This document shows positions 1 through 6,112 of a stretch of 34,941 bases of DNA, in pieces. Positions within the stretch are counted from its first letter, which is position 1. Each line of letters starts with the position of its first letter. The notes below the pieces were generated by a model. It saw only the letters and a program-made list of their open reading frames with translations, did no database searches and was not told the DNA's origin. The translations under genes and the position numbers were made by a program. The DNA is from an uncultured Bacilli bacterium (GTDB lineage Bacteria; Bacillota_I; Bacilli_A; RF39; UBA660), in contig CALVWG010000039.1 of assembly GCA_944364655.1 (NCBI GenBank), forward strand, positions 1 to 34,941, in the 5' to 3' direction.

Positions 1-129
1 AAAACAGAAAAAAGTAAATAATACTTTCCCCTTATACTAATTTTCGTTAGAAATTAGGTACAATAATTTTATAACACATTTTTCGCATGCTCAAAATGTG
101 CAATAAAATGCTAAACATTATATCATATA

Positions 130-159
130 ATTTTAACATTTACAAGCTGTAAATGTCAA
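130..159 (-). promoter_or_regulatory. Leftward sigma-A-type promoter formed across the inverted-repeat junction
   Basis: Minus strand reads TTGACA (159-154), 18-bp spacer, TGt-TAAAAT (extended -10, 135-130). Confidence 0.55.
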
Positions 160-214
160 AAACCTACATAATCTTTTTGTCAAAAACCAGCAAAAAAACT
201 TGACATTTACAGCT
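131..214. repeat. Three copies of a TGTAAATGTYAA inverted-repeat unit (IS-end-like junction plus a 64-bp mini-element)
   Basis: TTTTAACATTTACA (131-144), 3-bp spacer AGC, TGTAAATGTCAAAA (148-161), third copy TTGACATTTACA (200-211). Positions 145-159 and 200-214 form a perfect 15-bp inverted repeat. Confidence 0.65.
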
Positions 215-437
215 ATGGTACATTCATGATTTTTCTATTGATTATGATAATAACTTTATGGAAAGAGCTTTACGGATGATAAAAAGTAAAACAAAAGTAT
301 CTGGTGGTTTTAGAAGTCATAATGGTGGAATAAGATTTGGCAATATTATGAGCATAATTAAAATATCTAAGCTTAGAAAATTAAACCCTTTTGAATCAAT
401 TGTTTATATTATGGAAGGTAAAACTTTATTTGCATAA
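213..437 (+). pseudogene. C-terminal remnant of an IS66-family transposase (TnpC)
   Basis: Manual translation LWYIHDFSIDYDNNFMERALRMIKSKTKVSGGFRSHNGGIRFGNIMSIIKISKLRKLNPF... matches the IS66 NNxAERxLRxxKxKxKVSGxFRS motif. It has no start and is cut off at the repeat at 200-214. Confidence 0.8.
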
Positions 438-494
438 CCTAAAAAGGCATCTCAAAAATGCCTTGTTTAATCGTGCCTATGGCTGAGTAGTATC
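213..494 (+). mobile_element. Right-end remnant of an IS66-family element
   Basis: Transposase tail, hairpin AAGGCAT-ctcaaaa-ATGCCTT (444-464), then GGCTGAGTAGTATC (481-494), resembling the ...CTGAGTAGTTAC right terminus of IS66-family elements. Confidence 0.6.
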
Positions 495-532: not shown

Positions 533-561
533 TTGCATTTTATCAATAAATAGTGTATATT
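533..561 (+). promoter_or_regulatory. Sigma-A-type promoter upstream of repeat 1 and the abi gene
   Basis: TTGCAT (533-538), 17-bp spacer, TATATT (556-561). Confidence 0.6.
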
Positions 562-573
562 ATTTATCGAGAT

Positions 574-613
574 GTGCCTAGGAAACTTTTGAAGCCCTAG
601 GTCTTTTTCATTT
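574..613 (+). ncRNA. Putative AbiF-type RNA antitoxin / leader hairpin, copy 1
   Basis: GTGCCTAGGAAACTTTTGAAGCCCTAGGTCTTTTTCATTT: CCTAGG/CCTAGG stem, inner CTT/AAG stem and U-tract, immediately before RBS AAGGAGG (616-622). Direct repeat of 1549-1588. Confidence 0.65.
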
Positions 614-627
614 ATAAGGAGGTAAAA

Positions 628-1515
628 ATGGCTAAAAAATTTAAATCAACAAATGAATTAATTGAAATATTAAATTCAAAAGGTGTAACAAGAAAAGATG
701 AAAATAATGTTAGATATTTAATTGAAAAGTATTCCTATTATTCAATAGTAAACTCCTATAAATGGATATTTAAAATAGGAAAAAATTACAAAGATAATGC
801 TTCATTTGAAGAAATATTTGCAATGTATAAGTTTGATAAAAACTTAAAGATAATAATGCTTAAATATATTCTTGAAATAGAAGCAGTAATAAAAACTAAA
901 ATTGCTAATTTATTTGCTGAAAAGTATGGATTAGAAAACTATTTAGATATTAATAATTTTGATTTAAAAGATGATAATTCCAACTTAGAACATATAGAAA
1001 AATTAATTGAAGAAATCAAAAATGAGATTGATAAAGGAAATGGTAAGCATGATGCAATAACTCATTATATGAGTAAATATGGATTTGTTCCACCTTGGGT
1101 AGTTACTAAAATTTTATCTCTTGGAACAATTAGTAAATTTTATGGTTTAATGAAACAGCAAGATAGACAAGAAATAAGTAAACAATTTCATATAAATGAT
1201 AGAATATTAAAAAATATTCTTGGTAATTTAACATCAGTTCGTAATATAGCAGCTCATGATGATAGATTATACACTTATAGAAGCACATTCTATATTAGAT
1301 TAGACAAAACTAAAAAATCACCTGAAAAAGCATTACATACAAATATGTATATAATAATTAAATCTTTAGAATTGTTATTAGAAAATGATCAAGCAATAGA
1401 AATGAGAAGTTTAATTACAAAAGAATTAGATAATTTAAAGAATAATTTAACTTCGATTACTATTGATGAAGTATTAAAAGTAATGGGATTTGATAAAGAC
1501 TATTACATTGTATAA
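628..1515 (+). CDS. Abi family (Abi_2, AbiD/AbiF-like) HEPN ribonuclease toxin
   Basis: Family motifs SYYSIVNSYK, FEEIFAMYKFDKNL, EIE..IKT, HY..KYGFVPPWV, LSLGTISKFY and HEPN RNIAAH (1240-1257). Strong RBS. Confidence 0.9.
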   Translation: MAKKFKSTNELIEILNSKGVTRKDENNVRYLIEKYSYYSIVNSYKWIFKIGKNYKDNASFEEIFAMYKFDKNLKIIMLKYILEIEAVIKTKIANLFAEKYGLENYLDINNFDLKDDNSNLEHIEKLIEEIKNEIDKGNGKHDAITHYMSKYGFVPPWVVTKILSLGTISKFYGLMKQQDRQEISKQFHINDRILKNILGNLTSVRNIAAHDDRLYTYRSTFYIRLDKTKKSPEKALHTNMYIIIKSLELLLENDQAIEMRSLITKELDNLKNNLTSITIDEVLKVMGFDKDYYIV

Positions 1516-1537
1516 ATTTTAATTCATAGCATATAAT
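1508..1537 (+). promoter_or_regulatory. Sigma-A-type promoter overlapping the abi stop codon, positioned to drive repeat 2
   Basis: TTGTAT (1508-1513), 18-bp spacer, TATAAT (1532-1537). Confidence 0.55.
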
Positions 1538-1548
1538 AATGTTGAAAA

Positions 1549-1588
1549 GTGCCTAGGAAACTTTAGAAGCCTTGGGTCTTTTTCATTT
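1549..1588 (+). ncRNA. Putative AbiF-type RNA antitoxin hairpin, copy 2
   Basis: GTGCCTAGGAAACTTTAGAAGCCTTGGGTCTTTTTCATTT, 37/40 identical to 574-613. Both stem changes give G-U pairs and the third change is in the loop. Confidence 0.65.
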
Positions 1589-1934
1589 TCTTCAAAATAA
1601 TTTATCAAATTAGTAGGTATCATAGTATAATGATTATAGAATTAAATTGTTTATTTATTTGTTTTGATGGTTTCGGATTATATTAACTATCGCACCATAT
1701 TGATAATAACTCGAACTTTTATAGTCTGAGTTTTAATATATTTAAATTTACAATCAATATTATCTAAATAATTTATATTAAAATACACAATAAAAAGTAA
1801 AAAATTTTAACTTTAAAATTATAAATTAATTAAAATACCAACAATTTTGTAAATATAAAATTTCTGTTAAATTACAAAAACTTTTCTATAAAAAATAATA
1901 AATATGATAAAATTAAAAAGTAAGGAGAAGATAT

Positions 1935-5398: not shown

Positions 5399-6112
5399 AT
5401 GATTAAAAACATTAATTTTTTAAATTCTTTTAAATCTCCAGAATTATTATCAGCAGAAGAAACTTACAATCTATTTCAAAAAGTGAAATCAGGTGATAAA
5501 GAAGCTAAAAAAAAATTAGCAGAACATAATTTAGGATTAGTTTTCTACGAAGTAAGTCATAAATTTAAAACGGTTAATTATGATAAAGATGATATTATTT
5601 CTATTGGCGTAGTAGGGTTAATGAAAGCCATTAGTACATATAATGTTGAAAAAAAAGTTTATTTTCCATATTATGCTATTAAATGTATTGATAATGAAAT
5701 CTTACTTTTTTTGAGAAAATTAAAAAAAATTTCAACAATTAGCAGTTTAAATACTGCTTTGAGCACTGATGAAAAAGGAAATAAATTAACAATTGAAGAT
5801 ACATTAATTAATAAAATTAATATAGAAGAAGAATATTGTGTATCGGAAACTTATAGAATTATTAACCAGATTTTAAACGGTTTATCAAAAAGAGATAGAG
5901 AAATAATTAAACTTAGATTTGGCTTTTATAATGGAAGAGTCTACACCCAAGAAGAAATTGCTAAAAAAATTTCTGTTTCTCAATCATATGTTTCAAGACT
6001 ATTAATTGTAAATGTAAAAAAAATAGGTTTATTGTTACAAAAAGAAGGAGTCATAGAATTACGAAATAAAAAAAATCAAATTCAAAAATCTAATAAAAAA
6101 AGTATTAGTTAA
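5399..6112 (+). CDS. Sporulation-type sigma-70 factor (SigE/SigK-like)
   Basis: LAEHNLGLV, DDIISIGVVGLMKAI, YAIKCIDNEILLFLRK, LSKRDREIIKLRFG and TQEEIAKKISVSQSYVSRL. Confidence 0.85.
   Translation: MIKNINFLNSFKSPELLSAEETYNLFQKVKSGDKEAKKKLAEHNLGLVFYEVSHKFKTVNYDKDDIISIGVVGLMKAISTYNVEKKVYFPYYAIKCIDNEILLFLRKLKKISTISSLNTALSTDEKGNKLTIEDTLINKINIEEEYCVSETYRIINQILNGLSKRDREIIKLRFGFYNGRVYTQEEIAKKISVSQSYVSRLLIVNVKKIGLLLQKEGVIELRNKKNQIQKSNKKSIS

What the first reader, a model, noticed from the sequence alone, without database searches (positions are those of the whole stretch)
533..1588. AbiF/HEPN toxin bracketed by two independently promoted, structurally conserved RNA repeats
Seen in the sequence: a 40-bp direct repeat lies directly before (574-613) and directly after (1549-1588) an Abi_2 HEPN gene with an intact RNIAAH motif. 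The copies differ at 3 positions. One is in the apical loop and two are on the 3' stem strand (C>T, A>G), turning G-C and U-A pairs into G-U wobbles, which suggests selection on RNA structure rather than on a DNA site. Each copy has its own -35/-10 at a similar distance (533-561 and 1508-1537). Established: AbiF proteins are HEPN RNase toxins neutralised by a small structured cis RNA (abiF RNA motif, type III TA-like) and have been proposed as ancestors of Cas13 and its crRNA repeat; lactococcal abiD1 is controlled by a 5' leader hairpin. Inference: a repeat-toxin-repeat layout with a separately transcribed downstream copy could supply excess antitoxin in trans, or be a two-repeat proto-array in which the toxin gene occupies the spacer position. 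The repeat length is close to that of type VI CRISPR repeats.
Basis: partly seen in the sequence, partly recalled or inferred. Interest (0 to 1): 0.85.

Follow-up and report, generated by a model that had tools for sequence, protein, structure and literature searches.

The report
AbiF toxin flanked by antitoxin-like hairpins
A phage-defence toxin gene of the AbiD/AbiF type sits between two copies of a small conserved RNA hairpin that most likely keeps the toxin in check, and the same hairpin also turns up alone in bacterial genomes and inside phage tRNA gene clusters.

Summary
Window 571-605 and 1546-1580 are two copies of a 35-nt hairpin (repeat 569-613 / 1544-1588). They bracket an Abi_2/AbiD-F HEPN gene (628-1515, RNIAAH intact) and are the only two copies in this genome.

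The layout hairpin-gene-hairpin recurs in 55 distinct loci whose proteins are about 46-98% identical to the window's. The outer stem covaries (6 of 7 pairs change on both sides) and the loop is nearly invariant. G.U pairs outnumber A.C 67 to 6, so the sense-strand RNA is what folds.

The upstream copy lies in the toxin's leader: promoter, hairpin, U-tract, SD. The downstream copy has a TATAAT box 8 nt ahead and, in most lineages, its own terminator.

The Rfam abiF model (RF03085) does not match it, so this is a different RNA motif. The best reading is a type III-like AbiF toxin-RNA antitoxin module with a duplicated, split antitoxin gene (inferred, not shown).

Precise presence/absence alleles show that recombination between the repeats removes the toxin and leaves a solo sRNA gene. 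The "proto-CRISPR array" reading is not supported.

The same hairpin occurs singly in phage genomes that lack Abi_2, often within tRNA arrays. It may be an antitoxin mimic.

The parts
533..561 (+). Promoter-like site of the upstream unit: -35 TTGCAT (533-538), 17-nt spacer, -10 TATATT (556-561).
   Evidence: Sequence. Not listed by the consensus scan. In relatives the same position holds TTGACA-17-TATAxT, about 9 nt before the hairpin.
571..605 (+). Hairpin copy 1 (leader copy): outer stem 576-582 / 596-602, AAA, inner CUU/AAG around UUG, bulged C. The repeat extends over 569-613.
   Evidence: R1 covariance model 59.5 bits; repeat; covariation.
604..622 (+). U-rich tract (CTTTTTCATTT) directly after the hairpin, then Shine-Dalgarno AGGAGG (617-622). 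Possible attenuator/terminator between the RNA and the toxin.
   Evidence: Sequence. At least 7 T in the 10 nt after the stem in 53 of 55 upstream copies. Not called by the terminator scan, whose loop limit is 8 nt.
628..1515 (+). Abi_2 / AbiD-AbiF HEPN toxin gene, 295 aa. Rx4H motif RNIAAH at nt 1240-1257.
   Evidence: PF07751 E 3.5e-45; PADLOC AbiD 5.4e-56; PDB 8vz6_A E 1.2e-17, with RNIAAH aligned to RNSCCH.
1508..1537 (+). Promoter-like site of the downstream unit: weak -35 TTGTAT (1508-1513, overlaps the stop codon 1513-1515), -10 TATAAT (1532-1537).
   Evidence: Sequence. A TAnnnT hexamer ends 7-9 nt before the hairpin in 55 of 55 downstream copies, and is exact TATAAT in 48 of 55. The -35 matches at most 3 of 6 in 54 of 55.
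1546..1580 (+). Hairpin copy 2 (downstream copy), with two G.U wobbles. The repeat extends over 1544-1588, including the same CTTTTTCATTT tail.
   Evidence: R1 57.6 bits.
1589..1730 (+). Conserved ~110-nt element that travels with the module in the window's lineage: promoter-like TTATCA-18-TATAAT (1602-1631), a conserved 12-bp hairpin, then a terminator-like hairpin that varies in sequence. Function unknown.
   Evidence: It is also kept next to the solo hairpins L103 and L114.

Best explanation
This is a type III-like toxin-antitoxin / abortive-infection module of the AbiD/AbiF (Abi_2, HEPN RNase) family. Its RNA partner is a 35-nt hairpin family not in Rfam: a 7-bp covarying stem, then the invariant loop AAA-CUU-UNG-AAG-C, with conserved flanking G4, U5 and C33.

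The RNA is encoded twice.
- Unit 1 is the toxin's own leader: promoter, transcription start about 2 nt before the hairpin, hairpin, U-tract that probably stops most transcripts, SD, abi.
- Unit 2 starts right after the stop codon: a TATAAT box 8 nt ahead of a second hairpin, followed by a terminator.

The hairpin RNA most likely binds the AbiF dimer, one hairpin per monomer as in PbAbiF, and blocks the HEPN site. Unit 1 would couple toxin synthesis to antitoxin in cis. Unit 2 would supply antitoxin independently of toxin transcription. Loss of the labile RNA supply, for example on phage takeover, would free the RNase.

Because the antitoxin copies are direct repeats around the toxin, recombination between them deletes the toxin and leaves a working promoter-hairpin-terminator gene. 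This explains the many solo copies.

Shown: the repeat, covariation, strand asymmetry, conserved layout, presence/absence alleles, and homology to PbAbiF. Inferred: transcription starts and ends, binding, neutralisation, toxicity.
For: 1. Layout. All 28 of 28 close-homologue loci with a whole gene carry both hairpins.
- In the genus, 8 paired loci were found, counting the window's own.
- In the family sample, 11 of 29 fetched loci are pairs around a full-length Abi_2.
- In a motif-seeded metagenome sample, 19 of 27 loci with a full-length hairpin are pairs 951-980 nt apart, and all 19 have Abi_2 between them.
- Together these make 55 distinct paired loci.

2. RNA structure.
- A2: 99.5% of cells paired, 4 pairs with changes on both sides, 0 of 500 shuffles reach the covariation score.
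- A4 (family loci; 11 of its 43 rows come from genomes that also supplied model rows): 98.6% paired, 6 of 7 outer-stem pairs with double changes, 36 such cells against 10.9 in shuffles.
- 107 distinct hairpins: 676 Watson-Crick, 67 G.U and 6 A.C cells under a symmetric filter.

3. Coupling to the protein.
- Positions 33-35 (CTT, CAT, CAA or CGT) are identical in the two copies of a locus in 54 of 55 loci, while they differ between lineages.
- The other Abi_2 paralogue type has no hairpin: 0 hits in 26 loci.

4. Specificity.
- Only 2 copies in the own genome.
- 0 hits in 137 class genomes and 148 phylum genomes outside the family.

5. Units.
- Canonical TTGACA-17-TATAxT lies upstream of unit 1 in the non-window lineages.
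- TATAAT lies at a fixed distance before unit 2.
- A separate GC-rich terminator follows unit 2 in the non-window lineages.

6. Alleles.
- L204 equals L230 minus exactly the 974 bp between the repeats, with flanks 95-96% identical over 225 nt and 5.4 kb.
- The L103 hairpin is an up/down chimera with L036's upstream flank.

7. Precedent. The AbiF-ncRNA type III TA and the PbAbiF dimer with two RNAs are described in passages of PMC12373285, PMC12737573 and PMC13064643. The window protein matches 8vz6_A at E 1.2e-17.
Against: - No experimental or RNA-seq evidence for either small RNA. Only Logan contigs could be laid, and they cannot show ends or strand.
- The Rfam abiF model does not recognise the hairpin, so homology to the proven antitoxin RNA is not shown.
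- Folding energy is not better than shuffles.
- The downstream unit has no recognisable -35 (at most 3 of 6 in 54 of 55 loci) and no TG extension. It could instead be made from read-through abi mRNA.
- Matching tails of the two copies could come from gene conversion rather than from one protein reading both.
- Many loci are close kin, so counts overstate independence. The A4 alignment was fitted to the model's structure.
- Hairpins also occur away from Abi_2 (solo copies and phage copies), which leaves room for a partner other than AbiF.
Confidence: 0.68

Rival explanations
1. The hairpins are only transcription signals. The upstream copy is an attenuator and the downstream copy is the gene's terminator, with no role as an antitoxin.
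For: - Both window copies are followed by CTTTTTCATTT.
- 53 of 55 upstream copies are followed by a U-rich tract.
- RCd22 and ToxIN also place a terminator between the RNA and the toxin (section 6 of 10.1101/2025.04.15.648962).
Against: - A terminator does not need a loop that is invariant across lineages about 50% identical in protein and across phages.
- In the non-window lineages the downstream hairpin lacks a U-tract and is followed by a separate GC-rich terminator.
- Only 34 of 55 downstream copies are U-rich.
- The loop is 13 nt with an internal loop, which is poor for a terminator and was not called by the scan.
- In phages the hairpin sits between tRNA genes.
Confidence: 0.1
2. The repeats are DNA-level recombination sites (att- or attC-like ends) of a small mobile cassette, and the hairpin matters as DNA.
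For: - The ~1.1-1.2 kb module lies in different genomic contexts in 29 loci; homology to the window ends at about 491-526 and 1588-1780.
- Precise presence/absence occurs at the repeats.
- Chimeric solo copy L103.
Against: - Strand-specific G.U over A.C, 67 to 6.
- No recombinase in or beside the module: housekeeping genes follow in the window, and the 59-aa ORF upstream has no Pfam hit.
- Promoter and terminator features surround each copy.
- Plain homologous recombination between 45-90 bp direct repeats explains the alleles.
Confidence: 0.07
3. Proto-array: one transcript hairpin-abi-hairpin is cut by AbiF itself at both hairpins, as in pre-crRNA processing. The toxin ORF occupies the spacer position.
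For: - AbiF is reported to process its ncRNA (passage in PMC12737573).
- The downstream unit lacks a -35, so read-through transcription is plausible.
- In the non-window lineages the only terminator lies after the second hairpin.
Against: - There are never more than two units around one gene.
- TATAAT is exact in 48 of 55 downstream units at a fixed 8 nt, which is best explained as a promoter.
- Solo units stand with a full promoter and terminator.
- There are no variable short spacers and no adaptation genes.
- The duplication looks like the relic of a tandem gene copy: L049/L100 keep the start of a second abi after the downstream unit.
Confidence: 0.07
4. The hairpin is a free-standing functional RNA with a partner other than AbiF, such as a host RNase or a tRNA-related factor. 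The Abi_2 gene has merely recruited it.
For: - 24 full-length hairpins in viral contigs have no Abi_2 nearby.
- 0 of 10 whole viral records hold PF07751.
- 14 solo copies in the genus and 13 loci without Abi_2 in the family sample.
- The loop can be drawn as a 7-nt UU-UNG-AA anticodon-like loop (my reading, speculative).
Against: - In bacteria every non-solo copy is next to this one Abi_2 subfamily or to its remnants.
- Solo copies are explained by repeat-mediated deletion.
- The bacterial range equals the range of that subfamily: family f1 only among the genomes searched.
- Tail nucleotides track protein lineages.
Confidence: 0.08

Closest known systems
PbAbiF-AbiFr (Prevotellaceae AbiF with its ncRNA; PDB 8VZ6; Zilberzwige-Tal et al., Cell 2025 - not held in the library, known to me only through passages in PMC12373285, PMC12737573 and PMC13064643)
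   Same: Homologous HEPN protein (E 1.2e-17, Rx4H aligned). A small structured cis-encoded RNA sits next to the gene. The dimer takes two RNA molecules, which fits two hairpin genes.
   Different: The RNA here is not recognised by the Rfam abiF model. It is encoded on both sides of the gene instead of upstream only. I could not see the paper or its supplements, which may list other ncRNA types or layouts.
AbiF_Cd-RCd22 of C. difficile prophage phi027 (Saunier et al. 2025; section 6 and passages read)
   Same: Promoter, structured RNA, terminator, then abiF. Two hairpin motifs are needed. It acts in cis and in trans. Short transcripts dominate.
   Different: RCd22 carries two RF03085 motifs in tandem on one ~100-nt RNA upstream (33 and 35 nt, 19 nt apart). 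Here there is one motif per unit, the units are split to either side of the gene, and the sequence family differs. RF03085 consensus: CCCGCCAAGCC...GCUCAAAUCGGCGGG, with a 6-nt 3' internal loop. Here: GCCUAGG-AAA-CUU-UNG-AAG-C-CCUAGGU.
ToxIN / AbiQ type III TA
   Same: An RNase toxin held by a cis-encoded repeated RNA, with a terminator setting the RNA:toxin ratio.
   Different: The toxin fold is unrelated. ToxI is a tandem array upstream that is cut by the toxin. Here there are two separately signalled single units flanking the gene.
Phage pseudo-ToxI antitoxin mimic (Blower et al. 2012, PMC3475682; search listing and start of abstract seen)
   Same: A phage genome carries a copy of the host antitoxin RNA without the toxin. 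This matches the hairpins found in Abi_2-free phage records.
   Different: No experiment here. The phage copies are single and often sit in tRNA arrays rather than being tandem repeats.
Type VI CRISPR repeat / crRNA
   Same: A ~35-nt hairpin RNA bound by a HEPN protein of common ancestry (as reported in the reviews).
   Different: No array, no short variable spacers, no cas1/cas2. The repeats are a whole gene apart and each has its own transcription signals.

Membership tests
Abi_2 / AbiD-AbiF HEPN proteins (PF07751) | Profile match above the curated cut-off | tested here: met
   155 bits against a cut-off of 25.6, E 3.5e-45. PADLOC AbiD 188 bits.
Abi_2 / AbiD-AbiF HEPN proteins (PF07751) | Intact HEPN Rx4-6H catalytic motif | tested here: met
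   RNIAAH (R205..H210) aligns with RNSCCH of 8vz6_A. R210/H215 of PbAbiF are reported as essential (passage in PMC12373285).
AbiF-type type III toxin-antitoxin system | A conserved structured ncRNA encoded in cis next to the toxin gene | tested here: met
   55 distinct loci with a covarying hairpin on both sides of the gene. Absent from the other Abi_2 paralogue.
AbiF-type type III toxin-antitoxin system | The RNA binds the protein and neutralises its toxicity | not testable with these tools
   No RNA-protein predictor or experiment was available. Indirect only: the tail nucleotides of both copies match within a locus in 54 of 55 loci.
AbiF-type type III toxin-antitoxin system | The small RNA is expressed as a discrete transcript | tested here: inconclusive
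   Only contigs of runs could be laid. One RNA-library contig covers 495-678, but DNA carry-over cannot be excluded.
Rfam abiF RNA (RF03085) | Covariance-model score at or above the gathering score of 37 bits | tested here: not met
   No hit at gathering in the window. No abiF hit at E<=10 in 440-1940 or in the whole genome. Positive control phiC2: 37.6 bits.
Rfam abiF RNA (RF03085) | Consensus architecture: 6-bp outer stem, 1-nt 5' bulge, 3-bp inner stem, 6-nt 3' internal loop CAAAUC | tested here: not met
   Here: 7-bp stem, 3-nt 5' internal loop AAA, 3-bp inner stem, 1-nt 3' bulge. The asymmetry is mirrored and the sequence is unrelated.
CRISPR array (type VI) | Several near-identical repeats separated by short variable spacers, usually with cas genes | tested here: not met
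   Two repeats 975 nt apart with a gene between them. At most three units per locus were seen.
Intrinsic (Rho-independent) terminator | GC-rich stem with a short loop, directly followed by a U-tract | tested here: inconclusive
   A U-tract follows both window copies and 53 of 55 upstream copies, but only 34 of 55 downstream copies. The loop is 13 nt and the scan did not call it. Non-window downstream copies have a separate terminator.
Phage-encoded antitoxin RNA mimic (pseudo-ToxI kind) | A phage carries a homologue of the host antitoxin RNA without the toxin | tested here: met
   24 full-length hairpin hits in viral contigs, none with Abi_2 in the locus. 0 of 10 whole viral records have PF07751, and 7 of them are at least 90% complete.
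Phage-encoded antitoxin RNA mimic (pseudo-ToxI kind) | The phage RNA neutralises the host toxin and lets the phage escape | not testable with these tools
   Needs co-expression and plaque assays.

The most novel reading that the evidence does not exclude
The hairpin is the cognate antitoxin of one AbiD/F subfamily, and large low-GC phages have captured it. They place a single copy inside their tRNA gene arrays, so that tRNA processing releases it as a stable small RNA that disarms the host's AbiF. This would be an RNA anti-defence decoy riding in a tRNA cluster.

On the host side, the flanking two-gene antitoxin layout arose by tandem duplication of promoter-hairpin-abi. It gives the toxin a built-in safe exit: recombination between the antitoxin repeats removes the toxin and leaves orphan antitoxin genes. 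These orphans may in turn protect against incoming AbiF-bearing elements.
Probability: 0.35. Interest if true: 0.8.

Novelty: new variant of a known kind. Interest (0 to 1): 0.62.

Why it matters
AbiF-ncRNA modules were recognised only in 2025 as type III toxin-antitoxins and as the likely root of Cas13. The published RNA partners lie upstream and, where named, are of the RF03085 type.

This locus adds three things:
- a second, unrelated-looking hairpin family for the same protein fold;
- a conserved split layout with one antitoxin unit on each side of the toxin;
- clear natural alleles showing how such a toxin is lost without killing the cell.

If the phage copies are decoys, they would be a natural RNA inhibitor of a Cas13-ancestor nuclease and a new kind of cargo in phage tRNA arrays. 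Both ideas can be tested directly with small constructs.

Tried and rejected
- RNA evidence. The look-up of sequencing runs offered only runs kept as Logan contigs. I laid X14 and X16 (RNA) and X1 and X3 (probably DNA). X14 has a 186-nt contig over 495-678 and X16 a 494-nt contig over 997-1489. Contigs show no ends, strand or level, and DNA may be present, so I draw nothing from this. Parts without cover mean nothing.
- Rfam. Nothing at gathering in the window. Only three chance-level snoRNA-type hits at E 1-10 in 440-1940. RF03085 found 0 hits in 151 class genomes, and its controls were silent too, so that search says little. Six phage loci gave only tRNAs.
- The tandem hairpins before the second Abi_2 of L036 are not RF03085 either.
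- Folding energy against shuffles is not significant.
- The promoter and terminator consensus scans did not pick up the proposed sites.
- tblastn of the phage collection found no close homologue; the best was 31% identity. The search for related loci on viral contigs found no relative of the window protein.
- Generic MITE or terminator reading: rejected. There are only 2 copies in the genome and none outside the family among the genomes searched.
- Zilberzwige-Tal et al. 2025 is not held and supplements are closed. Their catalogue of AbiF ncRNAs might already contain this motif or layout.
- Literature searches for a flanking layout or a phage-borne AbiF hairpin found none in the library. That covers only the library searched.
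- I did not run structure prediction, complex prediction, the search for homologous proteins or the search of protein representatives. A solved homologue exists and no tool here models RNA-protein binding.
Full report
**The feature in the window.** The window starts at a contig end. After a 59-aa ORF with no Pfam hit (258-437) and a hairpin at 444-464, the order is:
- a promoter-like site at 533-561;
- a hairpin at 571-605;
- a U-rich tract and SD AGGAGG (617-622);
- a 295-aa ORF at 628-1515;
- a second promoter-like site at 1508-1537;
- a second hairpin at 1546-1580 with the same tail.

The 40-mer repeat occurs twice, against 0.00 expected. It occurs nowhere else in the 1.19-Mb assembly. Two of them create G.U pairs on the 3' arm.

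The ORF is Abi_2 and PADLOC AbiD. It aligns with the solved PbAbiF (8vz6_A, E 1.2e-17), with RNIAAH on the catalytic RNSCCH. Housekeeping genes follow: rubredoxin/rubrerythrin-like, ferredoxin, sigma factor, YqfD, Era-like GTPase, RecO and Ile-tRNA ligase-like.

**What single-sequence tests do not show.**
- Folding energies are ordinary (z -0.33 and -1.11).
- The promoter scan did not list the two sites, and promoter-like matches are at chance level in this 25% GC DNA (24 found, 23.9 expected).
- The terminator scan did not call the hairpins.
- Rfam has no match at gathering.
- The abiF model RF03085 gives nothing at E<=10 in the region or the genome. It does detect its known site before abiF of phage phiC2 (37.6 bits).
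- The RF03085 consensus is CCCGCC-A-AGC...GCU-CAAAUC-GGCGGG. It differs from this hairpin (GCCUAGG-AAA-CUU-UNG-AAG-C-CCUAGGU) in sequence and in the side of the internal loop.

**Comparative evidence.** Three homologues of 48-51% identity in the same genus already show hairpin-gene-hairpin with different, compensating stems and the same loop.

A protein-seeded scan of species genomes gave 32 loci at 76-98% identity. They come from MAGs titled mostly 'uncultured Bacilli', with one 'Clostridium sp. CAG:417'. All 28 loci with a whole gene have both hairpins. The other four are cut or are fragments.

I built a covariance model, R1, from 21 copies.
- In the genus it hits 23 of 47 genomes.
- In a one-genome-per-genus sample of the family it hits 34 of 150.
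- Outside the family it hits 0 of 137 class genomes and 0 of 148 phylum genomes. The two draws overlap, and these searches used strict filters.
- An exact loop pattern in metagenome contigs gave 120 stretches, of which 80 were handed over. Twenty-seven have a full-length hairpin. Nineteen of those are pairs 951-980 nt apart, each with an Abi_2 match between the copies.

Pooling all sets gives 55 distinct paired loci, with ORFs of 188-304 aa between the copies; four are shorter than 250 aa. One further pair (L225) is a chance match and was dropped.

**Structure.**
- On 22 copies, 99.5% of stem cells pair and four of seven outer pairs change on both sides.
- On 43 family-level copies, 98.6% pair and six of seven outer pairs show double changes. 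No shuffle of 500 reaches the score, and slid registers collapse to at most 57% paired. These 43 copies were aligned to the model, which leans towards its structure, and 11 of the 43 rows come from genomes that also supplied model rows.
- Across 107 distinct hairpins chosen by a filter that treats G.U and A.C alike, there are 67 G.U and 6 A.C cells. The sense strand therefore folds as RNA.
- Loop positions 13-19 and 21-25, and flanking G4, U5 and C33, are conserved at 92-100%; A13, U17, G21, A22 and A23 are invariant. Position 20 is U, A or C.

**The two units.**
- Upstream units in the non-window lineages carry TTGACA-17-TATAxT about 9 nt before the hairpin. The window type has TTGCAT-17-TATATT.
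- The upstream hairpin is followed by a U-rich tract in 53 of 55 loci, then the SD and ATG.
- Downstream units begin at the stop codon. A TAnnnT hexamer ends 8 nt before the hairpin in 53 of 55 loci (7-9 nt in all 55). It is exact TATAAT in 48 of 55. The -35 is poor, at most 3 of 6 in 54 of 55.
- A conserved GA precedes both hairpins, at the place expected for a start.
- In the non-window lineages the downstream hairpin has no U-tract and is followed within about 5-45 nt by a separate GC-rich terminator.
- In the window's lineage the downstream hairpin keeps the upstream-type tail.
- Up and down copies keep distinct 5' flanks in the window type (GAUG versus AAAG). Yet positions 33-35 are identical within a locus in 54 of 55 loci and differ among lineages: CTT 33, CAT 9, CAA 6, CGT 6.
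- In L049/L100 the downstream unit is still followed by a decayed SD and the first codons of a second abi. This points to a tandem duplication of promoter-hairpin-abi as the origin of the downstream unit (inference).

**Turnover.**
- Homology between the window and 29 related loci ends at about 491-526 on the left and 1588-1780 on the right. No flanking gene is shared.
- L204 is the same locus as L230 without exactly the 974 bp between the repeats. Flanks are 95% identical over 225 nt and 96.5% over 5.4 kb.
- L103 shares 480 nt of upstream flank with L036 and the downstream element with L061. Its hairpin is a chimera of the up and down types.
- Solo hairpins are common. There are 14 in 21 genus loci examined; 2 more sit next to Abi_2 fragments and 1 is a partial, chance-like hit. 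Thirteen of 29 family loci have no Abi_2 match, and 3 have N-terminal remnants.
- Many solo copies have a full promoter and a terminator, so they still look like working small genes.

**The other paralogue.** The genome's second Abi_2 (contig C97, 32% identity) and 25 loci of that type have no hairpin. The RNA therefore goes with one subfamily, not with Abi_2 in general.

**Phages.** Two exact loop patterns in viral contigs gave 28 and 40 stretches.
- Fourteen stretches of the first scan are full-length hairpins. From the second scan there are ten full-length hairpins plus one cut by the end of its locus. Their stems are new and compensating, for example ACCCCGG/CCGGGGU and CACCAGG/CCUGGUG. 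Most keep G4, U5 and C33. The remaining stretches match the loop only, as chance would.
- None has an Abi_2 match in its locus.
- 0 of 10 whole viral records have PF07751. Seven are at least 90% complete and three have terminal repeats.
- Five near-complete records have exactly one copy each.
- Of 17 loci scanned for tRNAs, 9 have the hairpin within 170 nt of a tRNA gene. In L275/L314 it sits between tRNA-Pro and tRNA-Thr, and in L127/L137 it begins 5-8 nt after tRNA-Thr.
- Another group places it between an Ig-domain protein gene and a tail assembly chaperone gene (Phage_TAC_17).
- Most tRNA-linked loci have 26-29% GC, like the window's 25%.
- A review reports that a phage cos-site hairpin inhibits lactococcal AbiF (passage in PMC13064643). 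Phage pseudo-ToxI is the classic RNA antitoxin mimic (PMC3475682; search listing and start of abstract seen).
- I therefore rate a decoy role as plausible but untested.

**Verdict.** The best explanation is an AbiF-type type III toxin-antitoxin with a new RNA motif and a split, duplicated antitoxin (confidence about 0.68). It is not a member of Rfam abiF and it is not a CRISPR-like array. Nothing about expression, binding or toxicity is shown. The original AbiF paper and all supplements were out of reach.

Noticed in passing
L127, L137, L131, L132, L147, L275, L314, L277, L310 (viral contigs); also L164 and L205 (metagenome): The same hairpin family occurs once per phage genome, in records without any Abi_2. 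It often lies inside or beside tRNA gene arrays: between tRNA-Pro and tRNA-Thr in L275/L314, and 5-8 nt after tRNA-Thr in L127/L137. It may be an RNA antitoxin mimic.
   Followed up: partly
window 1589-1730: A conserved ~110-nt element follows the downstream hairpin. It has a promoter-like TTATCA-18-TATAAT (1602-1631), a conserved 12-bp hairpin, and then a terminator-like hairpin whose sequence varies but still pairs. It stays with solo hairpins L103/L114. There is no Rfam match and the function is unknown.
   Followed up: partly
L036 4340-5442: About 1.1 kb after the module lies a second, diverged Abi_2 gene (309 aa, RNICCH). Two tandem hairpins of yet another type precede it, both starting GUGAGCAC and ending in a U-tract. 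RF03085 does not match them. A third, degenerate solo unit lies at 5823-5856.
   Followed up: partly
G000 contig C97 (L004 1411-2337): A second Abi_2 paralogue (308 aa, 32% identity) has a short leader and no hairpin. It sits directly before a 374-aa ORF that looks like a trypsin-like protease by eye; Pfam was not run on that ORF. A protein match at 30-37% identity is present in 35 of 36 other genomes of the genus; that most of these are this paralogue type is my reading. The 25 further loci fetched for that match have no hairpin.
   Followed up: partly
L111 (G291:C4), G265:C51:418-535, G219:C15:1515-2640: Two or three hairpin units lie close together (289, 83 and 139 nt apart). In L111 they are of different tail types, each with its own promoter and terminator. 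These look like small clusters of orphan hairpin genes. The G265 and G219 places were not fetched.
   Followed up: no
window 1-470: At the contig edge there is a perfect 15-nt inverted repeat (145-159 / 200-214), a 59-aa ORF (258-437) with no Pfam hit, and a terminator-like hairpin at 444-464. This may be a remnant of a mobile element, which would explain the assembly break.
   Followed up: no
L049 / L100, just after the downstream hairpin: The downstream unit is followed by a decayed SD and the first codons of another abi copy. This suggests the flanking layout arose from a tandem duplication of promoter-hairpin-abi.
   Followed up: partly
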